From: Escherichia phage A5-4
Length of the DNA stretch: 64,000 bases
Sequence record: OP744025
Strand: one strand, 5' to 3'
The notes below the pieces were generated by a model. The model had not been told where the DNA came from. It was given only the letters and a program-made list of their open reading frames with translations, and did no database searches. Each line of letters starts with the position of its first letter. The stretch's first letter is position 1. Position numbers and translations under genes: made by a program. Below, piece after piece: positions 21,467 to 32,290 of the stretch.

Positions 21467-22014
21467 AACGGTATGTCCTCGTCAACAATAAATTTTATAG
21501 CATTCTTTACAGCCGCTTTATTCAGATGTTGAACACGCTGGAAGAACATTAGGTTCAAGTCAAGAAGAATATCATCATCTCCGTACAACGCCGTGAAAAG
21601 ATCAAGCTCTTCATCTGTCGGATGCGTGGGATTCTCAAATAAGCCCTCAAACACCACCTGGGCCTCATTTCTTTTAGCCAGCGTGGTTGAGTCTCGATAG
21701 ATATTTAATACCGTGTGTACATCATCTACGCTTAGGATTTTGACACATTCCAGATCTCCTGTGTCACCATCGAGATAAAGAGTGATCGCAGGAGTTGACC
21801 AATTTGATTCACTTATTGCATAAACGTAGATGCTTTTGCGATTACCAACTGCAATAGACTCTTCAATTTTCTTTTCTGCCGCCTTAAAGAAAGGTTGGTG
21901 TTTGATCCAATGCTCCCAACCAATCCAACGAGCACCCTTACCATACGCATTCAGCACATGATTCTCAATGTTACGTTTACTCTTTAAAACCTCCATAAAA
22001 GAAAAGCCAGCCAC
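21463..22014 (-). CDS. hypothetical protein with ALYPE-type motif
   Basis: Contains NPTHPTDEELDLFTALYGDD. Confidence 0.55.
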   Translation of the reverse strand: MAGFSFMEVLKSKRNIENHVLNAYGKGARWIGWEHWIKHQPFFKAAEKKIEESIAVGNRKSIYVYAISESNWSTPAITLYLDGDTGDLECVKILSVDDVHTVLNIYRDSTTLAKRNEAQVVFEGLFENPTHPTDEELDLFTALYGDDDILLDLNLMFFQRVQHLNKAAVKNAIKFIVDEDIPF

Positions 22015-22035
22015 CTTTCGGTGACTGGCCTAGAG

Positions 22036-22503
22036 TTAGCTACTAATCACCACGAATGCAGTAACTATAGCATACAGAAATCCAATTGCAACAAAAATTA
22101 TCATAATGGGGTCAGAGGTTACTCGCTTAAGTTTTCCTAAGAAAGTTGATCGGTATTTGTGTTCCTTCTCCATTTTGTTTATCAAAATGATGAAAGAGTT
22201 GATATGAATATCTTCAGCACTCTCTGCAAAAGGTGTGTACTTGAACGTACCTTCTGTATTTGCAACAAAGCTGCGATGATACTTTTTACCGTCATAACTT
22301 TCTATAAGAAGACCATCCTTTGTCACCCGATAACTAACTGAACGGAACTTGTCATAAAAAACGTATGCCCTGAATCCATCTTGATCGGGAACAGCCTTTC
22401 TGACGTAGCCGTCAAAAAACTCCAATCTCTTTCCAGAATTCAGTTCCAAGTTGTCAGCTAACATAGGGAGTTGACTTACGTATGTAAAGTACATAATGAT
22501 CAT
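22036..22503 (-). CDS. hypothetical protein with C-terminal TM helix
   Basis: ORF track; hydrophobic C-terminus. Confidence 0.5.
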   Translation of the reverse strand: MIIMYFTYVSQLPMLADNLELNSGKRLEFFDGYVRKAVPDQDGFRAYVFYDKFRSVSYRVTKDGLLIESYDGKKYHRSFVANTEGTFKYTPFAESAEDIHINSFIILINKMEKEHKYRSTFLGKLKRVTSDPIMIIFVAIGFLYAIVTAFVVISS

Positions 22504-22695
22504 CCTTCCACTAAGCTGAAATCATTTTATCATATTATGAAAAAATACAACAGCGAAGATCGGTCATGAACACTATGTTGTTAATTTTTACAACAGGACT
22601 CCAAAAAAGTATTTAAATCACTTAAATCGATTTTAATACATAGAAAATACCTATGGACCAGATCTGACCCATAGGCTATACCTTAATGTGAAATT

Positions 22696-23274
22696 TTATT
22701 CATTTCCCCGATATTTTTGAATTGCGATCGAAGTCCTTGGTTCAGCCAGTCCAGTTCCATATGCATACCATTTGCCAGTGAGTGTTTTTCGAGCACCGTA
22801 GGACCCAATCTCCATGTCGTCACAATAAACATCGTAACCGATCGGGGTCTTAACTAAAAAGAGTACATTACGAGGAATCCCTAAGAGGGTAAACATCGAT
22901 ATGGCATCTTTTGCGATCTCGTGAGAAATCTTCTCTGCATTCTTTTTACTGGTTGCACTTCTAAACAGTTCCATCTTTAAGAAGATATTGAAATGAATAT
23001 CATCAAGAACCATCTCATCACGGAAGCATGGGGTCACAGCCATCCAACTGCCATCTTCCAACTTCCCTTCTTTGTCGAGTTGGAGGAATGATTGCTCTGC
23101 GGAAGCCACTGCATATTTCCCGTTCTGGACAATTCGAAGATCAGTAACATCTTCGGGGCATGTATGATCCATAGCATCATCATCCACATAGCTTGGGACA
23201 ACCTTATCATTGAAACCTTTACATTTCCACCAACTGTGGGCATCAATAAACAATGTGAAGTCGATGTTTGACAT
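22696..23274 (-). CDS. hypothetical protein
   Basis: Internal Met (MSNIDF) of track ORF 22696..23304, removing overlap with the upstream gene. Confidence 0.5.
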   Translation of the reverse strand: MSNIDFTLFIDAHSWWKCKGFNDKVVPSYVDDDAMDHTCPEDVTDLRIVQNGKYAVASAEQSFLQLDKEGKLEDGSWMAVTPCFRDEMVLDDIHFNIFLKMELFRSATSKKNAEKISHEIAKDAISMFTLLGIPRNVLFLVKTPIGYDVYCDDMEIGSYGARKTLTGKWYAYGTGLAEPRTSIAIQKYRGNE

Positions 23275-23275
23275 T

Positions 23276-23779
23276 TTAGCCTCGCTTACCATTCTGGAAT
23301 GCACGTTTAGTAATTTTTGACATAACCATCAGGTCTTCTATTGAAGTGCTTGGATGATACTTATTCAGGTAGGCTTCCATAGCGCCGACCAGATCAGAAA
23401 GCTCTACCAACTCCATGATCTTACATTTTTGTTTAGCTGCATCCTTGAGTTCATCAAGTTCTTCTTGAATCTTAGTGATCTCTCCAAGCTCTCCGCGAGG
23501 GAAAGTATCCAGATGATAACCAGGTTTTTGTTCTTCAATGCCCTCATGTCCGACAACACGAAATTTTCCGGCAGCGAAACGCCAAACACCTTCAAAATAC
23601 ACAATGTAATGTTCCGACTCTGCAATGAAGATAGTGTCGAAATTTTTAAATTTAAAAAATCCTTCGATAAGATTATCTTCTGTACTGAAACTTCCTAAGA
23701 AGTTGAGTTCTTGCTCCGTATGAAATTCCATAACCATATTTTCGTTCTGGAGTTTCGTCAGCAATTTTAAAATTTTCAT
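23276..23779 (-). CDS. hypothetical protein, possibly MazG-like all-alpha pyrophosphohydrolase
   Basis: Internal Met with RBS aggagag; C-terminal ELGEITKIQEELDELKDAA...LVELSDLVGAMEAYL loosely resembles the MazG EExxE motif. Confidence 0.35.
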   Translation of the reverse strand: MKILKLLTKLQNENMVMEFHTEQELNFLGSFSTEDNLIEGFFKFKNFDTIFIAESEHYIVYFEGVWRFAAGKFRVVGHEGIEEQKPGYHLDTFPRGELGEITKIQEELDELKDAAKQKCKIMELVELSDLVGAMEAYLNKYHPSTSIEDLMVMSKITKRAFQNGKRG

Positions 23780-23790
23780 TTTCTCTCCTC

Positions 23791-24279
23791 TTATGGGCAA
23801 CACCGTGGAGATCTTCCACAGAAGAATTGCCAATTGGTTTCTGAGTCTTTGTAATTTACAAACCCTATCCTTCCGCACCCTTTCCCACTACAAACCGCTT
23901 CACGAGGATGATAGTCTATACTGCAAGAGTGGGGATGATCAAACGCTTCTCGTATTTCAACACAGAGTCTACTTAACCAAGCGAACATTTTTGGCATAGA
24001 AGCTTCAAGGAGTTTAAGTTCATCGACCGTAGGTTTGTCTTTCTCCATGAAGAAGTCATTTATCTCGGAAAACAAAATCACGTTTTGAACTATACCGCTG
24101 CTTACCTTGTAAGAGAACTCCTCAGTAAGTCTCACAGTAACTTCCTCTATCAATTCTTTTTCATTATCTTGATCTTTTGCTAATCTTTCTTCAATCCATC
24201 GGATAACGAAGAATCTTTCTCTCTGAACATCCATGTTCAAAGTATTGATTATTTTTTCATAGATTAGGTTTCCTTCCAT
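23791..24279 (-). CDS. hypothetical Cys-rich protein with ALYPE-type motif
   Basis: Contains KPTVDELKLLEASMPKMF; N-terminal cysteine cluster. Confidence 0.5.
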   Translation of the reverse strand: MEGNLIYEKIINTLNMDVQRERFFVIRWIEERLAKDQDNEKELIEEVTVRLTEEFSYKVSSGIVQNVILFSEINDFFMEKDKPTVDELKLLEASMPKMFAWLSRLCVEIREAFDHPHSCSIDYHPREAVCSGKGCGRIGFVNYKDSETNWQFFCGRSPRCCP

Positions 24280-25391
24280 ACCTTGTCTTGTGCCTCCAGG
24301 ATAAGTTTTTCAACAATCTTCAGATCTGTTTTCTTTGGTAAGCTCGATTGCTTATAAAGAACATCTGTGATCATTTTATCTTTTTCTTCAGCCCAGTCAA
24401 CAATTTCTTCATAGCGGTATTCACCATTTCGGATTGCGAGGAGTTCTTCAGCGTCTGGTCGATTAACTAAAACTTTACCTTCTGTGAGGATTTCTTCACC
24501 CATCCGAAGAAGCCGGACCAAATGCATAGCATGTTTAGTGTCGTAACCGAACTTCTCTTCCAGTTCATGACGCTTCTCGTTACGATTCTTAACCCATTCC
24601 CAATAGTTGTGGTGTTTCTCCTTGGCCCATTTATGATCGTCAGCACAATACTTAACAATCATCAGTGTCTTACCTCTTTTAACTTCATCTGGGATTTCTT
24701 CATAGTCCAGCTTACGGATAGAACCATCTTTGTTAAACATAGGTTCAACATTTTCACGACGATCCTCTACAACGCCGTAAATGTTACTGCCGTAATGAAC
24801 CAAAGTACAGAAGCCTTCCATGTTTTTAAATTTACGAACAAAGTCTTCGTACTTCAACTCACCTTCTCCGAGATAGCTCTGCACCAGACGGAAATAGTCA
24901 AATTGAGTTGGTGGCTCTTTTGGTTGCGGATTATTAATGTGTTTGTTGTGACCCTTGATCCGCTTTAACTGAGACATTGCATAACCACTGAAGCGAAATG
25001 CAACTTCACGAGACAGTAAGGAGTAGAAATGTTCTTTCATCTCTTTCCAAGCTTCGTGCTCGTACAATGTGGCTTTCGGATCAGTAAAACCCAGTTCAAT
25101 GATATTTGGGTTCATCTTCGAAAACAGTTGAAGGAAAGTTCCCAATTCGTAGATCTTGGCATCCTCTTCACCAGGGATGTTTAATTCAGTAACCTCTTTG
25201 AATGGGGTACGAACCACATTTGGGGTTGCAACAAAAACCCCACGGATATCAATATCACTACCTTCGTTATTCGTACCATACGCATGAGATCCTGCCAGAC
25301 TCAACATCAGTACCTTCGCCACGTCTGGATGATTTTCCATCTTCTCTACGATACTTTTTACCTTTCCAGCACTCACAACTGAATTTTCCAT
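24264..25391 (-). CDS. Pol-beta superfamily nucleotidyltransferase
   Basis: N-terminal motif LSLAGSHAYGTNNEGSDIDIRGVF (hG[GS]...D.D signature). Confidence 0.6.
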   Translation of the reverse strand: MENSVVSAGKVKSIVEKMENHPDVAKVLMLSLAGSHAYGTNNEGSDIDIRGVFVATPNVVRTPFKEVTELNIPGEEDAKIYELGTFLQLFSKMNPNIIELGFTDPKATLYEHEAWKEMKEHFYSLLSREVAFRFSGYAMSQLKRIKGHNKHINNPQPKEPPTQFDYFRLVQSYLGEGELKYEDFVRKFKNMEGFCTLVHYGSNIYGVVEDRRENVEPMFNKDGSIRKLDYEEIPDEVKRGKTLMIVKYCADDHKWAKEKHHNYWEWVKNRNEKRHELEEKFGYDTKHAMHLVRLLRMGEEILTEGKVLVNRPDAEELLAIRNGEYRYEEIVDWAEEKDKMITDVLYKQSSLPKKTDLKIVEKLILEAQDKVWKET

Positions 25392-25481
25392 TTATCCTCC
25401 AATCATGTAAGTCACACAAGCCAACCCAGTTGGCCTGTTTAATCTTTATAAAGTTTACGCAGCTTGTGCAGTCTTTTTTAT

Positions 25482-25877
25482 TTATAGGCATTTCACACCA
25501 TAAATGATCATCAATACAACAAGTGTCAGTGTATAGATCAAACTCCCATAAAGTCCATGACTGGTGATTTTAAGCTTTTTCTTAAAGCACATCATTGTAC
25601 TATAAATTACACCAGTCCAGTGAATCACTAAAATCGCGGTGGCAATATCTGAAACATTACCCGCCCAAAGCATCAAAGAGTATGAGAGGTACATTGCAAA
25701 ACCTGATAGTAGGAATGTAAACAAATAACCAATTACACTTTTCTTTTTCTGATCTACGATTTTATTTTTCATGGTATCGATGTTCAGATTGTAATAGGCA
25801 ACTGCCACTATCTGGATAATCAGCCCCAAAATAAAGAAAGAGATCAGTGTAACGTATTCAAAAATTGGTGCAGTCAT
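25482..25877 (-). CDS. integral membrane protein (about 4 TM helices)
   Basis: Highly hydrophobic ORF. Confidence 0.55.
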   Translation of the reverse strand: MTAPIFEYVTLISFFILGLIIQIVAVAYYNLNIDTMKNKIVDQKKKSVIGYLFTFLLSGFAMYLSYSLMLWAGNVSDIATAILVIHWTGVIYSTMMCFKKKLKITSHGLYGSLIYTLTLVVLMIIYGVKCL

Positions 25878-26275
25878 TATAATTTCTCCTCAATAATTTC
25901 AGAAATGAGATTCGAGATCTCGAAAGTTTCTAACTCTTCGACGTGTGACAAGCGCTGGAGGCGCTCGATAACAAAGTCTTTCTTCACAAACACATCCGAC
26001 AGATGCTCAATGTCCTGCTTACCACGCATTCCGCTAACCAACTGCTTGTATCGGATGAGTTCAATATACTCCTCTTTAGACATTACTGTCAAGCGTTCAT
26101 CTGCACAAATATGCAAAAATACTTGCTTGCTGTCCCAGTCAAATCCTCTGTACACTGCCTCTACTTCACGGCGTGGTGTCCCGCCCAGTGTTACATGACC
26201 AACCTCAACAGGGATAGATACCTGATCATCAGGTCGGCACTGCTGCAACTCCTCAATCAATTCAGATACTTTCAT
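25877..26275 (-). CDS. hypothetical protein
   Basis: ORF track. Confidence 0.55.
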   Translation of the reverse strand: MKVSELIEELQQCRPDDQVSIPVEVGHVTLGGTPRREVEAVYRGFDWDSKQVFLHICADERLTVMSKEEYIELIRYKQLVSGMRGKQDIEHLSDVFVKKDFVIERLQRLSHVEELETFEISNLISEIIEEKL

Positions 26276-26277
26276 AG

Positions 26278-26733
26278 TTACCCCTGTTTAAGCTTAAAAG
26301 ATTTAAAGGCTTCGATAAAGTCCATTTCTTTTTGCGTGTATTTGTGGTCAATTGTATCAGAGAAAAGAGGGCAACGACCATCAACCAACTTCACATCCCA
26401 CAGATGTTGAGGGAGAATAAATGCAATGGCTGTAAGTGCACCATTCAAAGAATCATTCTCCTCGCAGAAAAATGCGTAAGGAATCTTCTCTATGTTTGGA
26501 GCTAAAAATCCTTCTGCAAAATTAAGCATCTTCGATTGATAGCCTCCGTTCAACAAGATCATTGTTTGGTCTTTGCTTTGCCACTGATCTACAAGGTTGT
26601 ATCTGTCATCATATCGATCGGCATAGGCAAATCCATAATGACCTACAAGGTTTGCTGCTGCATGTGCTGCTTGGATACCTGCTTGGATTCCCATCATGTA
26701 GCTGTTTACCAATACGTACATCCGAGTTTTCAA
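26278..26733 (-). CDS. hypothetical protein
   Basis: ORF track. Confidence 0.55.
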   Translation of the reverse strand: MKTRMYVLVNSYMMGIQAGIQAAHAAANLVGHYGFAYADRYDDRYNLVDQWQSKDQTMILLNGGYQSKMLNFAEGFLAPNIEKIPYAFFCEENDSLNGALTAIAFILPQHLWDVKLVDGRCPLFSDTIDHKYTQKEMDFIEAFKSFKLKQG

Positions 26734-27050
26734 TTCTTACCTCCAAAAATTCGTTTTGCAAACTTTTCATTACCAATCGTTAGATTATAAACAACCATAG
26801 TTGAATAAACAATCCACGCAAGAGCATAAAACAAAATCAAGAAAGGCCACCCTACAAACCAGAATACAGTCATTATTAACCAACCTAGCATCAGGAGTTT
26901 ATAATTAACATTTCCGTGATTTAAAGGGTCGAGTAAGTTACTGTTTTCTGGCAAAGGGATACGAAACCCGCCCTGGCGAAGCTTGATTAACAAGAACCAA
27001 GCGGCAGAACTTATAATGCAACATAAAATATACGTTAATAAACTTGTCAT
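26730..27050 (-). CDS. membrane protein, tandem paralog 1
   Basis: Shares WFLLIKLRQ.GF.IP.P motif with the adjacent 27047 gene. Confidence 0.55.
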   Translation of the reverse strand: MTSLLTYILCCIISSAAWFLLIKLRQGGFRIPLPENSNLLDPLNHGNVNYKLLMLGWLIMTVFWFVGWPFLILFYALAWIVYSTMVVYNLTIGNEKFAKRIFGGKN

Positions 27051-27376
27051 TTTTTAACCCCAAAGATCTTAGTTAGTAATTTATCATTCCCTATAGTAAG
27101 GCCACATAAACTTTTTATACCGAACACCAAGTACGACCCAATTGTAACACAGATAATAATTGGGTAAACAAGATACCAGAAGAATGTTGCACATAGCCAA
27201 CCAACCATGACCATACGTAAATTTACATTTTCATTGTTCAGGGGTTCTAGGATATACAGGTCTTCACTATCCTTGGGGAAGGGGATGTTGAACCCCTTCT
27301 GCCGTAATTTGATCAATAAGAACCAAAGTGGACAACTGATCAAACAACCTATTAAATAACCTTCAACCATTTTCAC
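27047..27376 (-). CDS. membrane protein, tandem paralog 2
   Basis: See paralog 1. Confidence 0.55.
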   Translation of the reverse strand: MKMVEGYLIGCLISCPLWFLLIKLRQKGFNIPFPKDSEDLYILEPLNNENVNLRMVMVGWLCATFFWYLVYPIIICVTIGSYLVFGIKSLCGLTIGNDKLLTKIFGVKK

Positions 27377-28613
27377 TCTCCTTCAACTTGTCAAGGTATT
27401 GTGTAACGTATCTTACTTTTACATTTCGGATTCTGCTCTTGATCTCATTTGGACGTCCCGCGAATTTTTCAGAAATCTCTTTACTTTCTTTTGAGATTGC
27501 AACACTGTTCTGGATAATCCCTGCCAGTGCTGAGAATAATACCAAAGGCTGAGTGTAACTGTCAAACATTTTTTCAGGACCACGACCACGAGAATCACAG
27601 ATGCAAGCATCAATGAATTCAGAAAGGAATGCTTGGTCCTTTTCACCACGTAAGGCTACTAACAAGTCATAAACTTTCTTCGGCTTCATTTCTTTGATAC
27701 GGTGGAGTCGCGTATGATGCTCAGTCACAGCTAAAGCCAACTTCTTCCAACTATTGGGGACACCAAAGCGATCACAAACTTGTTCAGTTAACTTGATACC
27801 GTGCTCTTCGTGACCGTGCAGTTTACCCGTTACCCAGTAAATACATTTACCTAAGTCGTGACACAGAACTGCCCACTTCACAGCTTCACTTGCACGAGTC
27901 GCCTGGGCATAATCCATGCAAAGTAAAGTGTGAACAAATGCATCACCTTCAGGATGGTGCTCCTTGGGTTGAACAACATCGTATAAATCCACAAGCTCAG
28001 GAAATTCTCCCAGTTGAGTCAACATACGGATCATTACCGAAGGTTTATTCATTTCTGACTGATCACTAAAGCATTTCTTAATCTCTGCAAATTTACGCTC
28101 TTTTGGAAGTGCACTTAAGTCTACATTTTGGCACATTCCCCAAGTGTCATGATCAATTGTAAACTCACCGCCGTATCGGGCGTGTAGTCTGGCTAATCGG
28201 TATACACGTAAAGGGTCTTCGATAAATGCTTTAGTGGATACACAACGTAACCGACTATTTTCAATATCAAGTACACCACCACAAGGGTCAATAATTTCAC
28301 CCGTGGAAAGATCCTTGGCAATAGCATTAATGGTCAAATCTCTTCGCATCAGATCTTGTTCGATTGTAACGTCTGGAGAGAACACAACCTCGAAGTCGTG
28401 ATAACCAGGGCCTGTTGATCTTTCTGTCCGAGCAAGAGCGTACTCTTCTTTGGTGTCTGGTTCAAGGTACACAGGGAAAGCTGCACCAACCTTAGTGAAT
28501 CCTTTTTCAATCATCTCTTCGTGGGTCGCACCAACAACCACGTAGTCTCGATCCTTACTTTCAACGCCCATTAGTTCATCACGAACTGCTCCACCTACCA
28601 AGTAAACTTTCAT
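27363..28613 (-). CDS. cca: tRNA nucleotidyltransferase (CCA-adding enzyme) with HD domain
   Basis: N-terminus MKVYLVGGAVRDELMG..DRDYVVVG matches bacterial Cca; HD motif LCHDLGK; start set at internal Met with RBS gaggag. Confidence 0.8.
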   Translation of the reverse strand: MKVYLVGGAVRDELMGVESKDRDYVVVGATHEEMIEKGFTKVGAAFPVYLEPDTKEEYALARTERSTGPGYHDFEVVFSPDVTIEQDLMRRDLTINAIAKDLSTGEIIDPCGGVLDIENSRLRCVSTKAFIEDPLRVYRLARLHARYGGEFTIDHDTWGMCQNVDLSALPKERKFAEIKKCFSDQSEMNKPSVMIRMLTQLGEFPELVDLYDVVQPKEHHPEGDAFVHTLLCMDYAQATRASEAVKWAVLCHDLGKCIYWVTGKLHGHEEHGIKLTEQVCDRFGVPNSWKKLALAVTEHHTRLHRIKEMKPKKVYDLLVALRGEKDQAFLSEFIDACICDSRGRGPEKMFDSYTQPLVLFSALAGIIQNSVAISKESKEISEKFAGRPNEIKSRIRNVKVRYVTQYLDKLKESENG

Positions 28614-28875
28614 ACTCTTTCTCCTCTTAAGTTTAAAGACCAATCTTTTATTTCTTCTTTCCAGTTTGTATTTCTCTCAATGTCTTGCTTTTGACCACGA
28701 AGATAGTTGATGATCTCAAGCGGGTCTTGCTTAACAAAAGAAATATTATCGATCGGACACTCAACTAACTTAAGCATCCTTTCAAAACGATTATACTCAT
28801 CTTCTGACTTTGATGCAACAGGAATAACATCGTAATCTTCAAGATTATTGAGAGTTTCAAGAGTGACCTTCATCT
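28610..28875 (-). CDS. hypothetical protein
   Basis: Internal Met of track ORF 28610..28939; ATGA coupling to cca. Confidence 0.45.
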
Positions 28876-28993
28876 CGTAACCTTCTAATTTCTTTGTCTT
28901 GATACCAAACACTCTTCGAAAGTAAATGTAATATTTCATTATGTTCTCCTAGTTGATGACTATCATTATACACATCTATGAATTCAAGTCAAT

Positions 28994-29029
28994 AAAAAAA
29001 AAAAAAAAAAGGCCACCCGAAGGTGACCT
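28994..29029 (-). terminator. intrinsic terminator (hairpin then about 17-nt T run on minus strand)
   Basis: ggccaccc gaag gtgacc hairpin 29011-29029 next to A17 on the plus strand; downstream of the stop of gene 29036..29545. Confidence 0.55.
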
Positions 29030-29035
29030 TTAAAT

Positions 29036-29545
29036 TTAAGGGTGAATCCAGTAAAAAGGTTTTGTTAAACCAAGTTTACCTTTTTTATCCCAAATAAAAT
29101 AACCATATGCTGCACCATCTGTTTTACCATCGTCAGTAAAAGAAGGTCGCTTAGATAAAGTAACTAAGTGATCAACAGGGTATTGCTTCCAGAACTCAAC
29201 ACGTTTGGTACTCTCAAGGAAACCTAAACGAAGAAGCATGATCACTACATCAGCATCCTTGTGCGCTTTTTCTACAAACTCTTGAGCTAAATTGTAAGGT
29301 GGATTAGTTAACACACAATCTACCTTATTGTATTTAGTTGCAAGATAATCAACACCTTCTTGAATCTCTCCCCAGGCTGAACCAATTGGCATTTCATTAT
29401 AAAAACTTCCAGAGGCTCTGCAAGGTTCCAGATAAGTCCAATCCTGACGGATTGGAACTAAATTCAAGAAAGCATCTACTGCCCATTTCGGAGTTTCATA
29501 GCGATCATTTTCACGGCGCTCTGCTTTAGGTTTCAATGCTGCCAC
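29036..29545 (-). CDS. putative N6-adenine-type methyltransferase (NPPY motif)
   Basis: Motifs EPCRASGSF (SAM-binding-like) and TNPPY (catalytic motif IV). Confidence 0.5.
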   Translation of the reverse strand: MAALKPKAERRENDRYETPKWAVDAFLNLVPIRQDWTYLEPCRASGSFYNEMPIGSAWGEIQEGVDYLATKYNKVDCVLTNPPYNLAQEFVEKAHKDADVVIMLLRLGFLESTKRVEFWKQYPVDHLVTLSKRPSFTDDGKTDGAAYGYFIWDKKGKLGLTKPFYWIHP

Positions 29546-29547
29546 TC

Positions 29548-30393
29548 TTATTTGCCCCCTTCTTTCGCCGCAGTGATGATCTGTTCAATTAACTCGTCAC
29601 GATAATAAACGTACTGTTCAACACCGAAACATTCCGCAATCTCGTCTAGTTCGTCGAGGTTGTACTCGTCAAAGTCTCGTGGGTTAAGAGTAAAGATGTT
29701 GAATTTTTTGGCGTAGCCTTCGTCGAGGACGATTTCAAATTCTCCCTCTCCGATTTCCTTCGCATCATCAACATCACTCGATTCGATTGACCCTTCAACC
29801 TTAATCCCCCCTGTATTTTGTTGATCGGCTTCCATTTGCTTTTTAATTGCTTCATCTTCAGCGGTCAAACGGGCTTGCATCTGAGAGGAAGTGAAGTAAA
29901 TTTCGCCAGCACGATCAAACAGTTCAACGAGTTCATCTTCTGTCATAACACCCTTGTACAGATCGTAGTATTTCTCTTTGAACAGGTCTTTGTAGAAATC
30001 GCTACGTTTAAATACCAGCGCCGAGTCACCACCCATACTCATCTGAACGTTGTGGAACATATAATGAGAACCTGGACGACAAATTCGAACATGACCAGAT
30101 AAGAAGATCATTGTTGCAGCACTTGCCACTTCACCAATGCCGTGTGTCACAACAGTCGCCTTAGCTTCAGAGATCGCTGTCATGTACATATCTGCGATAT
30201 CACAATAACCACCGCAAGAAGTAATGTATAGATTTACAATATCACCTTCTGGTGCTGAACGAATCAGATCAACAGCCTCAATATGTGCTTCAGGTGAGTT
30301 GTGCAGATCGGTAACATAGATACGCCAATCGTTAGAAGTTACTGGAGATACCCAAATGTTTTTTGCTGGACCATTCATTACGATTTCTTCCAT
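29548..30393 (-). CDS. ClpP-like serine peptidase with acidic C-terminal tail
   Basis: ClpP-like segments NLYITSCGG, GEVASAATMIFLSG, HYMFHNVQ. Confidence 0.45.
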   Translation of the reverse strand: MEEIVMNGPAKNIWVSPVTSNDWRIYVTDLHNSPEAHIEAVDLIRSAPEGDIVNLYITSCGGYCDIADMYMTAISEAKATVVTHGIGEVASAATMIFLSGHVRICRPGSHYMFHNVQMSMGGDSALVFKRSDFYKDLFKEKYYDLYKGVMTEDELVELFDRAGEIYFTSSQMQARLTAEDEAIKKQMEADQQNTGGIKVEGSIESSDVDDAKEIGEGEFEIVLDEGYAKKFNIFTLNPRDFDEYNLDELDEIAECFGVEQYVYYRDELIEQIITAAKEGGK

Positions 30394-30884: not shown

Positions 30885-31202
30885 TTAAATTCCGATTAAA
30901 TATTTAAACTTCCCGTCGTTCTCTGCGATCTTGTGGATTACATAGAACCAATTTTCAATTCCGTCTTCATCTTCCTCTTTCACACGATCACCAGTTTTCA
31001 ACTCAACCTCGGAAACGTACTCCTTACTTTCAAGAAAATACTTCCACTGAACCATGTCTTTAAAATTACAGATTAGTTTATTTTTGCCATCTGTCGTCCA
31101 AAGGTCCTGATTGACCCACATACCAACAACGAAATTCTTTTCTTTTTTAGGACGACCAAGTGCATAAGTGTTGTTTAACATCTTTGCTTTATCTAAGACC
31201 AC
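30885..31202 (-). CDS. hypothetical protein
   Basis: ORF track. Confidence 0.5.
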   Translation of the reverse strand: MVLDKAKMLNNTYALGRPKKEKNFVVGMWVNQDLWTTDGKNKLICNFKDMVQWKYFLESKEYVSEVELKTGDRVKEEDEDGIENWFYVIHKIAENDGKFKYLIGI

Positions 31203-31842
31203 GTTTTGACTCCAAGTTAACTAAGAAATTCTCAAGCACTGTGATGTTGTCTTCTTTCCAAAGATTAAGTGTTCTTACTCCACTCTTCTTTGCAAGATTG
31301 ACTGCTGTAGCAGTGCCGCCCTTGGGATTGCCCGTTCTTGTTTCCTTTGCGTAGTATATCACAAACTTACTTTGCATCAAGTATGCATTTGAAAGATTTT
31401 TACCAAAAATCTGGTGTACGTTTCTTTCGTGCAACTTCCTTGCCCCCTGACTCAACTTATCCCAACCACCATGAACTTCCTTTATCCATTCCCACCTCAT
31501 TTCCTTATGTTCTGGAAATTCTATATCAATCGCGTTTAGTGAGATATTATACAGATCTTTAAGTCCCTGTCCACCTTTAAAGTTGTCCCAAGGAACATAT
31601 ACCTCTGCAAGTTTGCTCGGCGATTGAGCCATATTACAATCTTCATGAAACCTCTGCATACCCCTTTGGAAGGCTGCATCTGCACCACCTGCACCACCAG
31701 ATCGTAATGTGTACCCAACCCTTGCTAATCTCCAACCTGCATCTTCCATAATTTTTAATATTTCTTCAGGAGTCTCCCTTGAACCTATTCCTGTATAAGC
31801 TGGCACTTTAACCTCCTTCATCTTCAGTTGACCAGTACCCAT
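31189..31842 (-). CDS. DprA/Smf-like (SLOG-type Rossmann) protein
   Basis: Motifs YTGIGSRETP, TLRSGGAGGADAAFQRG and GGTATAVNLAKKSG; start approximate (internal Met). Confidence 0.4.
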   Translation of the reverse strand: MGTGQLKMKEVKVPAYTGIGSRETPEEILKIMEDAGWRLARVGYTLRSGGAGGADAAFQRGMQRFHEDCNMAQSPSKLAEVYVPWDNFKGGQGLKDLYNISLNAIDIEFPEHKEMRWEWIKEVHGGWDKLSQGARKLHERNVHQIFGKNLSNAYLMQSKFVIYYAKETRTGNPKGGTATAVNLAKKSGVRTLNLWKEDNITVLENFLVNLESKRGLR

Positions 31843-32290
31843 TAACTTTTTTCCAAAGCCTTTGGTTATCTGATCCCCTGAATCTTTTAGTTGTAGGTTT
31901 GTTTTCATTATACTTACCGTCCATGATTAAGTCAACGTGTTTCTTTATTTCCTCATCCAAGTCTTCAAAAAGATACCCTGTCCACACCATGATATCTTTA
32001 CTCTCACCAAAGCACAACTTTACTTCCTTGATGATTCTTTTTACAATATCAATATTCTCAGGGTCAAGAGGTTCTCCACCCATAATTGACAATCCACTGA
32101 TAAAGTTTCGAGAAAGATCTTTTTTCAATCTCTCCATATCTTCATCTGTGAATTCTTTTCCATACCTGTATGACCAAGCCTTTTGGTTAAAACAGCCTTT
32201 GCACTTATGGCTGCATCCACTAACCCACAGGGAGGTTCTTACACCCTCCCCGTTGATGAAGTCTGTGCTTTCATACCCGCAGATGTTCAA
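31808..32290 (-). CDS. nrdG: anaerobic ribonucleotide reductase activating protein (radical SAM)
   Basis: Cys cluster GCSHKCKGCFN; position immediately downstream of nrdD. Confidence 0.8.
   Translation of the reverse strand: MNICGYESTDFINGEGVRTSLWVSGCSHKCKGCFNQKAWSYRYGKEFTDEDMERLKKDLSRNFISGLSIMGGEPLDPENIDIVKRIIKEVKLCFGESKDIMVWTGYLFEDLDEEIKKHVDLIMDGKYNENKPTTKRFRGSDNQRLWKKVNGYWSTEDEGG

What the first reader, a model, noticed from the sequence alone, without database searches (positions are those of the whole stretch)
24264..28613. Pol-beta nucleotidyltransferase, membrane proteins and CCA-adding enzyme form one co-transcribed cluster
A CCA-adding tRNA nucleotidyltransferase with HD domain (27363..28613) heads a run that includes two tandem paralogous membrane proteins (26730..27376, shared WFLLIKLRQ.GF.IP.P), two unknowns, a polytopic membrane protein, and a 375-aa Pol-beta-superfamily nucleotidyltransferase with the GS...D.D signature (24264..25391). 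Together with the five CCA-encoding tRNAs in the window, this points to phage investment in tRNA 3'-end maintenance or RNA end modification. Why a second, unrelated NTase travels with membrane proteins is not explained by known T4 biology.
Basis: partly seen in the sequence, partly recalled or inferred. Interest (0 to 1): 0.55.

Follow-up and report, generated by a model that had tools for sequence, protein, structure and literature searches.

The report
Phage tRNA-end repair gene cluster
This stretch of an E. coli phage genome is the core of one early operon that encodes three enzymes acting on the amino-acid-accepting end of tRNA (a CCA-adding enzyme, a peptidyl-tRNA-hydrolase-like protein and an RlaP nucleotidyltransferase); the same trio sits side by side in many unrelated phages, so the "mystery" second nucleotidyltransferase belongs to a known RNA-repair family.

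The parts
29008..29031 (-). Intrinsic terminator ending the upstream unit (ClpP-like protease, DNA methyltransferase)
   Evidence: 10-bp GC-rich stem followed by a T18 run. The same hairpin is conserved at the equivalent place in Cronobacter phage CR3.
28965..28992 (-). Sigma-70-like promoter (TTGACT-16-TATAAT), the likely start of the operon
   Evidence: Matches 11 of 12 consensus positions. It lies in the only sizeable intergenic gap, directly after the terminator and 25 nt before an AGGAG ribosome-binding site. Promoter-like hits inside genes are no more frequent than in shuffled sequence.
28610..28939 (-). 109-aa protein of unknown function, first gene of the unit
   Evidence: phrog_12008. 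Found upstream of the CCA gene in 14 related loci. Its stop overlaps the CCA start by 4 nt.
27363..28613 (-). Class II CCA-adding tRNA nucleotidyltransferase with a C-terminal HD phosphohydrolase domain (416 aa)
   Evidence: PF01743 and PF01966. NF008137 scores 379 bits over the full length. phrog_2244. Motifs A, B, D and HD are present.
27047..27376 (-). Small membrane protein, paralogue A (109 aa)
   Evidence: phrog_17692. Hydrophobic segments. Only one copy in CR3.
26730..27050 (-). Small membrane protein, paralogue B (106 aa)
   Evidence: phrog_17692. About 42% identical to paralogue A, measured against the UPEC06 orthologue.
26278..26733 (-). PTH2-fold (peptidyl-tRNA hydrolase 2-like) protein, 151 aa
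25877..26275 (-). 132-aa protein of unknown function
   Evidence: phrog_12566. Conserved between the PTH2-like and RlaP genes in 6 related loci. No PDB or Pfam match.
25482..25877 (-). 131-aa polytopic membrane protein
   Evidence: phrog_12739. Three or more hydrophobic segments. Found only in close relatives.
25267..25491 (-). Possible 74-aa Cys-rich ORF bridging the 90-nt gap and overlapping the RlaP start by 125 nt (uncertain)
   Evidence: Open and 68% identical in CR3-type phages, with CxxC...C..H...C retained. Broken or absent in L016 and L018. No Pfam or PHROG match.
24264..25391 (-). RlaP-family Pol-beta nucleotidyltransferase (375 aa)
   Evidence: PF10127 6.9e-19, 68.9 bits. phrog_388 over the full length. 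G34 S35 D46 D48 invariant. Strong GGAGG ribosome-binding site. Homologous to T4 NrdC.11.
23791..24279 (-). 162-aa protein of unknown function with a Cys-rich C-terminus
   Evidence: phrog_12113. No Pfam or PDB match.
23276..23779 (-). 167-aa protein of unknown function
   Evidence: phrog_6408 on residues 85-167. No Pfam or PDB match. Start taken from the UPEC06 annotation.
22696..23274 (-). 192-aa minimal class II aminoacyl-tRNA-synthetase-like catalytic core (closest to SerRS)
   Evidence: phrog_4806. TIGR00414 1.6e-4. The family profile hits SerRS catalytic domains at E 6.6e-7. TPCFRDE and GTGLAEPR are invariant. 775 homologues of about 190 aa.
22649..22676 (-). Terminator-like hairpin, first candidate 3' end of the unit
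   Evidence: 12-bp stem with a weak T tract. Not detected at the equivalent CR3 site.
22004..22031 (-). Stronger terminator after the next gene (membrane protein 22036-22503), alternative 3' end
   Evidence: 12-bp stem with 7 GC pairs and a T-rich tail. A terminator occupies the equivalent site in CR3.
61271..63124 (+). tRNA gene region: five tRNAs with encoded CCA and one atypical tRNA-like gene without CCA (context only, not part of the operon)
   Evidence: ARAGORN, sequence, Rfam.

Best explanation
The region is the core of an early operon, roughly 28,990 to 22,650 or 22,000 on the minus strand, of a Vequintavirinae-type E. coli phage. It probably starts from a host sigma-70-type promoter.

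The conserved functional core is a trio of enzymes that all act on the acceptor end of tRNA:
1. A class II CCA-adding enzyme with an HD phosphohydrolase domain, of the E. coli Cca type.
2. A PTH2-fold hydrolase homologue.
3. An RlaP nucleotidyltransferase.

The small membrane proteins, three unknowns and a 192-aa SerRS-like minimal class II core are lineage-specific additions.

Inferred mechanism. Host nucleases or toxins may shorten, block or modify tRNA 3' ends during infection. The HD domain would then heal phosphorylated ends. RlaP would add back one or two untemplated nucleotides that lie beyond the reach of the CCA enzyme, such as the discriminator base. The CCA enzyme would rebuild C74-C75-A76. 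The PTH2-like protein would remove acyl, peptidyl or N-blocked aminoacyl groups that occupy the 3' end. Together these steps would keep a chargeable tRNA pool for phage translation without any RNA ligase.

Shown here: gene content, family and fold assignments, catalytic motifs, operon-like packing, and conserved neighbourhood across phages.
Taken from the literature: RlaP biochemistry, measured on Pseudomonas homologues.
Inferred: the substrates, the order of steps and the counter-defence role.
For: Family assignments:
- RlaP PF10127, 68.9 bits against a cutoff of 23.
- CCA enzyme with HD domain and all motifs.
- RlaP adds 1-2 NMPs to RNA 3'-OH, prefers damaged tRNA mimics, and rescues aminoacylation of a tRNA lacking one nucleotide (PMC12776372).

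Operon structure:
- Terminator plus TTGACT-16-TATAAT promoter upstream.
- ORFs overlap or abut over the whole run.
- The upstream terminator is conserved in CR3.

Conserved linkage, starting from RlaP:
- After collapsing RlaP sequences at 70% identity, 9 of 22 clusters have a CCA enzyme and 6 have the PTH2-like gene. In all but one locus the CCA gene lies within 2.5 kb upstream on the same strand.
- Gene order is shuffled but adjacency is kept: L064 CCA-PTH2L-RlaP, L012 CCA-RlaP-PTH2L, L057 PTH2L-CCA-x-RlaP, L082 RlaP-CCA, and L011/L024 CCA-RlaP with overlapping stop and start codons.

Conserved linkage, starting from the PTH2-like family:
- 27 of 55 loci carry a CCA enzyme (14), a Thg1-like enzyme (12) or RlaP (7) nearby.

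No ligase:
- No RNA ligase or Pnkp was recognised in the large ORFs of the A73-type genome, in the CR3 annotation, or next to the other CCA-RlaP pairs.

The tRNA acceptor end is a documented target of defence systems and toxins:
- Cas12a3 cuts off ACCA tails (PMC12851939).
- toxSAS/CapRel enzymes pyrophosphorylate the CCA end.
- MenT toxins extend it.

A review of jumbo phages already groups RlaP, CCA enzyme, Thg1 and PTH2 as phage RNA-repair and ribosome-rescue genes (PMC7824862).
Against: - No experiment exists on this phage or on any phage RlaP.
- From my reading of the profile alignment, the residue aligned to the catalytic Lys of archaeal Pth2 is a conserved Gln, while the Asp position is a Glu (catalytic residues recalled from memory). 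Esterase activity is therefore unproven.
- 13 of 22 RlaP clusters lack a nearby CCA enzyme. One large lineage places RlaP between RecA-like/gp32 genes and a helicase gene.
- The CCA gene is split in phage UPEC06 and in locus L020. It may be dispensable, or these may be sequencing errors.
- RlaP shows little NTP specificity, so exact restoration of a lost base would be inefficient.
- From general knowledge, E. coli already has Cca and Pth.
- Five of the six phage tRNA genes in the window encode CCA, so the enzymes are not needed for their maturation.
- Co-transcription rests on sequence signals only.
Confidence: 0.6

Rival explanations
1. RlaP has its canonical role. It refills a nucleotide lost from a cleaved anticodon loop before the halves are resealed by a ligase supplied in trans, either host RtcB or the phage ATP-dependent ligase. 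The CCA enzyme and the PTH2-like protein do separate jobs (tail repair, ribosome rescue). Adjacency reflects a shared tRNA-repair theme, not one pathway at the 3' end.
For: - This is the published model for RlaP (PMC12776372; PMC7824862).
- E. coli has an RtcBA operon.
- The phage encodes an ATP-dependent ligase at 55117-56484.
- PNK-like P-loop kinase genes lie near RlaP in L010, L011, L012 and L081.
Against: - No RNA ligase lies in the operon, in the genome's large ORFs, or near the other CCA-RlaP pairs.
- RlaP leaves a 3'-OH, which RtcB cannot use.
- The closest and most recurrent partner in this clade is the CCA enzyme, often with overlapping stop and start codons.
Confidence: 0.2
2. The cluster is housekeeping support for phage translation rather than counter-defence. 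The enzymes would mature or maintain phage and host tRNAs and recycle peptidyl-tRNA during the burst of late protein synthesis.
For: - A sixth tRNA-like gene lacks an encoded CCA.
- These phages carry 6 to 18 tRNA genes.
- The operon also has an aaRS-like gene.
- The CCA gene appears split in two relatives, as expected for a helpful but non-essential function.
Against: - Five of the six tRNA genes in the window encode CCA, and the host supplies Cca and Pth (general knowledge).
- RlaP has no known role in normal tRNA maturation. It adds random nucleotides, which would harm intact tRNAs.
- The promoter type suggests early expression rather than late.
Confidence: 0.15
3. There is no functional unit. 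The genes are syntenic early genes of unrelated function, and the NTase acts on a non-tRNA substrate, for example a nucleotide signal or decoy, or protein or small-molecule nucleotidylylation.
For: - The top structural neighbours are HalB (a defence NTase that makes oligo-dA), DrrA and aminoglycoside NTases.
- Many RlaP loci have no RNA-related neighbour.
Against: - The Pfam assignment to RlaP is clear. Tested RlaPs used RNA, not DNA or protein.
- Adjacency with shuffled order across lineages is hard to explain without functional coupling.
Confidence: 0.05

Closest known systems
RlaP (PF10127) RNA-repair nucleotidyltransferases: Pseudomonas PfRlaP/PaRlaP and phage T4 NrdC.11
   Same: Pfam family membership. 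The G-S...D-x-D Pol-beta catalytic signature. An N-terminal NTase domain followed by a C-terminal helical domain. Presence in phages. Profile-level homology to T4 NrdC.11.
   Different: The protein is 375 aa, with an extra mixed alpha/beta insertion at about residues 160-250 in the model. Only the N-terminal half matches the Pfam model. Its gene neighbour is a CCA-adding enzyme, not an RNA ligase, and no RNA ligase was found in the genome.
E. coli-type multifunctional CCA addition/repair protein (Cca: class II CCA-adding enzyme with HD domain)
   Same: Full-length collinear match to NF008137. Head-domain motifs A, B and D, and the HD motif.
   Different: The score of 379 bits is below NCBI's equivalog cutoff of 451, so this is a diverged, phage-specific lineage (phrog_2244). 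It is encoded in an operon with RlaP and a PTH2-like gene.
Archaeal/eukaryotic peptidyl-tRNA hydrolase PTH2 (PF01981; PDB 1wn2, 1xty)
   Different: Below the Pfam threshold (16.4 against 23 bits). About 30-60 residues longer, with a C-terminal extension. The position of the catalytic Lys is a conserved Gln (my reading). It forms its own large, mostly metagenomic family of 2,515 clusters at 50% identity.
T4 Pnkp/Rnl1 tRNA healing-and-sealing pathway against PrrC
   Same: Phage-encoded restoration of host tRNA damaged during infection. Early expression.
   Different: No polynucleotide kinase-phosphatase and no RNA ligase were recognised here. The enzymes present act on tRNA ends, not on internal breaks.
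Jumbo-phage RNA-repair gene set (RlaP, CCA enzyme, Thg1, PTH2) described by Iyer et al. 2021 (PMC7824862)
   Same: The same four families and the same proposed purpose: repairing RNA hit by host RNases.
   Different: That survey reports that RlaP distribution mirrors RNA ligases in jumbo phages. Here the phage is about 140 kb, has no recognisable RNA ligase, and the three genes form one compact operon.
Truncated SerRS-like class II synthetase homologues (for the 192-aa protein)
   Same: Motif 2 (TPCFRDE) and motif 3 (GTGLAEPR) are conserved. The profile matches SerRS catalytic domains.
   Different: Only about 190 aa, with no N-terminal tRNA-binding arm. Far below the serS equivalog cutoff. 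Restricted to close relatives among the loci examined.

Membership tests
RlaP (PF10127) | Match to the Pfam model above the gathering score | tested here: met
   68.9 bits against a cutoff of 23, E 6.9e-19, covering residues 15-145 only. All 119 full-length homologues among the 120 listed carry PF10127; the one 236-aa fragment has none.
RlaP (PF10127) | Pol-beta NTase catalytic signature (G-[GS], D-x-D, third acidic residue) | tested here: met
   G34, S35, D46 and D48 are invariant in 39 sequences. D77 and E82 are invariant candidates for the third carboxylate.
RlaP (PF10127) | N-terminal NTase domain plus C-terminal helical domain forming a cleft | tested here: inconclusive
   The AF2 model (pLDDT 91.3) has an N-terminal alpha/beta NTase domain and a C-terminal helical bundle, plus an extra insertion. 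No RlaP crystal structure was found in the PDB copy for comparison.
RlaP (PF10127) | Gene neighbourhood with an RNA ligase (the origin of the name) | tested here: not met
   No RNA ligase in the operon, in the large ORFs of the A73-type genome, in the CR3 annotation, or near other CCA-RlaP pairs.
RlaP (PF10127) | Adds 1-2 NMPs to RNA 3'-OH, Mn2+-dependent | not testable with these tools
   Shown only for PfRlaP and PaRlaP (PMC12776372).
Class II CCA-adding enzyme with HD domain (E. coli Cca type) | PolyA_pol head domain with motifs A (GGxVRD..DxD), B (RRD) and D (EDxxR) | tested here: met
   PF01743 5.6e-20. GGAVRDELMGVESKDRD, RRD and EDPLR are present.
Class II CCA-adding enzyme with HD domain (E. 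coli Cca type) | C-terminal HD phosphohydrolase domain | tested here: met
   PF01966 4.1e-08. HD motif at residues 252-253 in CHDLGK.
Class II CCA-adding enzyme with HD domain (E. coli Cca type) | NCBIfam equivalog score cutoff | tested here: not met
   NF008137 scores 379.4 bits against a cutoff of 451, although the alignment is full-length (1-407 of the protein to 1-404 of 409 profile positions). PcnB models score far lower.
PTH2 peptidyl-tRNA hydrolase (PF01981) | PTH2 fold | tested here: met
PTH2 peptidyl-tRNA hydrolase (PF01981) | Pfam gathering score | tested here: not met
   16.4 bits against a cutoff of 23 for the window protein. 11 of 32 family members match, but only sub-threshold.
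PTH2 peptidyl-tRNA hydrolase (PF01981) | Catalytic Lys and Asp (Lys18/Asp86 of S. solfataricus Pth2, recalled from memory) | tested here: inconclusive
   Extrapolating the profile alignment to 1xty places a conserved Gln (Q17) at the Lys position and an invariant Glu (E91) at the Asp position. No structural superposition of the residues was available.
Class II aminoacyl-tRNA synthetase (SerRS-like), for 22696-23274 | Class II motifs 2 and 3 | tested here: met
   T81-P82-C83-x-R85 and G173/T174/G175...P179-R180 are invariant or nearly so. The profile hits SerRS catalytic domains at E 6.6e-7.
Class II aminoacyl-tRNA synthetase (SerRS-like), for 22696-23274 | Full synthetase architecture (tRNA-binding arm, equivalog score) | tested here: not met
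   192 aa, compared with about 425 aa for a SerRS. TIGR00414 scores 20.9 bits against a cutoff of 301.
T4-type RNA repair (Pnkp plus RNA ligase) | Presence of a polynucleotide kinase-phosphatase and an RNA ligase | tested here: not met
   Neither was found by Pfam or PHROGs in the candidate ORFs, nor in the annotation of relatives.

The most novel reading that the evidence does not exclude
The CCA enzyme, the PTH2-like protein and RlaP form a ligase-independent pathway that rebuilds tRNA acceptor tails. RlaP restores the discriminator base (or other nucleotides upstream of CCA) on tRNAs whose ACCA tail has been cut off. The HD domain heals the end, the CCA enzyme re-adds CCA, and the PTH2-like esterase clears blocked ends. 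This would be a phage counter-measure to defences that attack the universal 3' end of tRNA: Cas12a3-type tail cleavage, toxSAS pyrophosphorylation, MenT extension and GNAT acetylation. The Cas12a3 authors state that viral resistance to tail cleavage would need 'yet unknown' means. The large, unnamed PTH2-like family would then be a dedicated partner of tRNA-end repair enzymes (CCA enzyme, Thg1-like, RlaP).
Probability: 0.3. Interest if true: 0.75.

Novelty: new variant of a known kind. Interest (0 to 1): 0.45.

Why it matters
tRNAs are a main battleground between phages and bacterial immunity. The textbook phage answer is T4's kinase-plus-ligase repair of a cut anticodon loop, or carrying replacement tRNAs. 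Several newly described defences instead attack the universal CCA tail, which replacement tRNAs cannot escape, and no phage counter-measure is known. The compact trio described here has no ligase and recurs in phages of enterobacteria and in marine and other metagenomes. It is a concrete, testable candidate for such a counter-measure. It also gives a biological context to two poorly understood families: phage RlaP, and a PTH2-like family of about 2,500 clusters that has no Pfam model. If the trio turns out to be only general tRNA housekeeping, the result is still a useful re-annotation of genes that are 'hypothetical' in the five closest E. coli phage records found here, and probably in many more.

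Tried and rejected
- T4-like origin: rejected. The closest records are Vequintavirinae phages A73, W70, LTH01 and UPEC06.
- CD-NTase or signalling enzyme: no support.
- Direct sequence search of the PDB with the NTase, alone and as a profile: only a marginal MNT hit, and no RlaP structure.
- Single-sequence PDB search with the 151-aa protein: nothing useful. The fold search was needed.
- Search for an RNA ligase or Pnkp partner: none found. I read the CR3 annotation and ran Pfam and PHROGs on the large unassigned ORFs of the window and of phage A73 and on ORFs near other CCA-RlaP pairs. Two ORFs of 391 and 405 aa stay unassigned, so absence is not absolute.
- The 132-, 162- and 167-aa proteins: no informative Pfam, NCBIfam or PDB match. 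My guess that the 167-aa protein is MazG-like was not supported.
- Internal promoters: hits are no more frequent than in shuffled sequence (31 against 31.3), so they were ignored.
- Burroughs and Aravind 2016, the original RlaP paper: not available in the library. Its content is cited only through later papers.
- The idea that the repeat downstream of the tRNA genes is a hammerhead ribozyme: no Rfam match, and the predicted topology does not fit.

Full report
**What is there.**
- The window is not from a T4-like phage. Region 24000-29000 is 93-96% identical to E. coli myoviruses LTH01, A73, W70, A7_1 and UPEC06, which are classified in Vequintavirinae.
- The 375-aa protein is 100% identical to that of A73. 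The left end of the window is 98.5% identical to A73 positions 77,707-80,000.

**Gene by gene.**
- 27363-28613 encodes a class II CCA-adding enzyme with an HD domain. It matches PF01743 and PF01966. It aligns over its full length to the E. coli-type 'multifunctional CCA addition/repair protein' NF008137, at 379 bits, below the equivalog cutoff of 451. Motifs GGAVRD..DRD, RRD, EDPLR and HD are intact.
- 27047-27376 and 26730-27050 are tandem paralogues. Both match phrog_17692. They are about 42% identical, measured against each other's UPEC06 orthologues. They share the WFLLIKLRQ.GF.IP.P motif and have 2-3 hydrophobic segments. CR3 has only one copy.
- 25482-25877 is a small polytopic membrane protein.
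- 24264-25391 is an RlaP-family nucleotidyltransferase. PF10127 scores 68.9 bits and phrog_388 matches over the full length. G34, S35, D46 and D48 are invariant across 39 homologues.

**The 'unknown' 151-aa protein.**
- It is annotated only as 'hydrolase' (phrog_3668).
- Sequence support is weak but consistent. The best PDB profile hit is the PTH2 structure 1xty. Eleven of 32 family members hit PF01981 below threshold.
- By my reading of that alignment, the acidic catalytic position is an invariant Glu. The Lys position is a conserved Gln. The catalytic residues are recalled from memory, so activity is not assured.
- An exhaustive profile search shows a large family: 2,515 clusters at 50% identity, 1,951 of them at E below 1e-10. 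It has no Pfam model of its own.

**Operon.**
- Upstream of the 109-aa gene 28610-28939 lies a textbook terminator (a GC stem followed by T18). It is followed immediately by TTGACT-16-TATAAT and an AGGAG ribosome-binding site. The same hairpin is conserved in CR3.
- From there, eleven genes follow on one strand. Their stop and start codons overlap or abut. A possible overlapping 74-aa ORF makes a twelfth.
- The only gap is 90 nt before the RlaP gene, which has a strong GGAGG ribosome-binding site.
Terminator-like hairpins follow at 22676-22649 (weak) and 22031-22004 (strong; its position is conserved in CR3).
- The 192-aa protein is a minimal class II synthetase core closest to SerRS. It matches phrog_4806, its profile hits SerRS catalytic domains at E 6.6e-7, and motifs 2 and 3 are invariant. 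It has 775 homologues of about 190 aa.
- Co-transcription is therefore well supported by sequence signals but is not demonstrated.

**What is known about RlaP.**
- A December 2025 preprint reports results for two Pseudomonas RlaPs (PMC12776372).
- They add one or two NMPs, from any NTP, to RNA 3'-OH. They do not act on DNA or protein.
- They prefer Mn2+ and prefer a damaged-tRNA mimic.
- They partly restore aminoacylation of a tRNA that lost one nucleotide before ligation.
- The preprint places phage T4 NrdC.11 in the same family. I confirmed homology directly: BLASTP E 2e-6 over the NTase core, and hhalign probability 97.3% with E 2.5e-11 over 264 columns.
- So the statement that the enzyme is unexplained by T4 biology does not hold.
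- A comparative study of jumbo phages already lists RlaP, CCA-adding enzyme, Thg1 and PTH2 as phage RNA-repair and ribosome-rescue genes. It notes that RlaP distribution mirrors RNA ligases (PMC7824862).

**Conserved neighbourhood.**
- The order ClpP-like protease, methyltransferase, small genes, CCA enzyme, membrane gene(s), 'hydrolase', NTase recurs in CR3 (Certrevirus) and in Klebsiella phage K54_rec3. In CR3 an aaRS-like gene follows.
- Two unrelated metagenomic phage contigs have the PolyA_pol and RlaP genes with overlapping stop and start codons.
- I fetched 80 viral loci around RlaP homologues and searched them with iterated HMMs.
  - 20 of 44 loci with at least 5 kb on both sides carry a CCA enzyme. 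In all but one locus of the set it lies within 2.5 kb upstream on the same strand. 14 of the 44 also carry the PTH2-like gene.
  - After collapsing RlaP at 70% identity, 9 of 22 clusters have the CCA enzyme and 6 the PTH2-like gene.
  - The order varies while adjacency is kept: L064 CCA-PTH2L-RlaP, L081 CCA-PTH2L-gap-RlaP, L012 CCA-RlaP-PTH2L, L057 PTH2L-CCA-x-RlaP, L082 RlaP-CCA.
- The membrane proteins, the 132/162/167-aa unknowns and the mini-synthetase occur only in close relatives, 4-6 loci.
- The remaining RlaP loci belong largely to one lineage in which RlaP lies between RecA-like/gp32 genes and a helicase gene.
- Starting independently from the PTH2-like family gave a matching result.
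  - 27 of 55 loci with at least 3 kb flanks carry a CCA enzyme (14), a Thg1-like 3'-5' polymerase (12) or RlaP (7) nearby.
  - The Thg1-like gene is the immediate neighbour in several loci.
- In a Yersinia jumbo phage a Thg1-like gene lies about 3 kb from RlaP.

**No ligase.**
- The CR3 annotation has a DNA ligase but no RNA ligase or Pnkp.
- Pfam and PHROG scans of the large unassigned ORFs of the window and of A73 found RCC1-like proteins, a PIF1 helicase, an ATPase, exonucleases and an ATP-dependent DNA ligase, but no RNA ligase.
- None was found beside the other CCA-RlaP pairs either. PNK-like P-loop kinases do recur there.
- The feature that gave RlaP its name is therefore not met here.

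**Mechanism.**
- All three conserved enzymes act on the acceptor end of tRNA. Their alternative partner, Thg1-like, repairs the 5' strand of the same stem.
- The most economical reading is a module that maintains or repairs the acceptor end. HD-domain end healing, RlaP addition of nucleotide(s) upstream of CCA, CCA rebuilding, and PTH2-like removal of acyl or peptidyl groups would be its steps. The steps and their order are inferred.
- A plausible selective pressure exists.
  - Cas12a3 cuts off ACCA tails, and its authors state that viral resistance would need 'yet unknown' means (PMC12851939).
  - toxSAS/CapRel enzymes pyrophosphorylate the CCA end.
  - MenT toxins extend it.
- Caveats:
  - 13 of 22 RlaP clusters lack a nearby CCA enzyme.
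  - The CCA gene is split in UPEC06 and in L020.
  - RlaP is unspecific for NTPs.
  - The host has its own Cca and Pth (general knowledge).
  - No experiment exists for any phage member.

**Verdict.**
- The components are known families already discussed as phage RNA-repair genes.
- The compact CCA/PTH2-like/RlaP triad without a ligase, and the PTH2-like family's association with tRNA-end polymerases, appear to be new details worth testing.

Noticed in passing
window 61271-61349 (+): Rfam finds a sixth tRNA-like gene (35.8 bits) that ARAGORN missed. The D-arm is reduced to about 4 nt, the variable region is about 21 nt, the anticodon loop is CUUCUAA (UCU, Arg), and it is followed by CTA instead of CCA. 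Similar sequence (85-94% identical) occurs unannotated in several unrelated E. coli and Salmonella phages.
   Followed up: partly
window 61444-61560 and 62338-62470 (+): A structured repeat of about 115-130 nt lies directly downstream of tRNA-Met and tRNA-Tyr. The first 54 nt are 80% identical. The two copies share a predicted fold with 6 compensatory base-pair changes and conserved unpaired GACUGA and GAAA. There is no Rfam match. Part of it is also found next to tRNA genes in T4-like phages.
   Followed up: partly
window 12846-16377 (-): Three consecutive genes (380, 414 and 410 aa) encode RCC1-like beta-propeller repeat proteins (PF25390, RCC1_2). This is an unusual tandem set for a phage.
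   Followed up: no
window 25267-25491 (-): A 74-aa Cys-rich ORF fills the only intergenic gap of the operon and overlaps the RlaP start by 125 nt in another frame. It is open and 68% identical in CR3-type phages but broken in others.
   Followed up: partly
L001 (UPEC06) 9364-10705; L020: The CCA-enzyme gene is split into two ORFs in phage UPEC06, where the segment corresponding to window 27518-27608 aligns to both blocks of the comparison, consistent with a short duplication at the split. It is also split in one IMG/VR relative. This is either real decay or a sequencing error.
   Followed up: no
L094, L095, L096 and L103-L112: In another phage lineage that carries PrkA/DUF444/SpoVR-like genes, PhoH, ThyA, DHFR and Acb1, the PTH2-like gene sits next to a Thg1-like gene.
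   Followed up: partly
L010, L028-L092 (many loci): In a large, mostly environmental phage lineage the RlaP gene lies between RecA-like/gp32-like genes and a DEAD-type helicase gene. This is a DNA replication and recombination block with no RNA-repair neighbour.
   Followed up: no
window 29036-30393 and 31189-31908 (-): Immediately upstream of the operon lie a small DNA methyltransferase, a ClpP-like protease (PF00574) and a weak DprA-like protein. This block is syntenic in CR3 and in Klebsiella phage K54_rec3.
   Followed up: no
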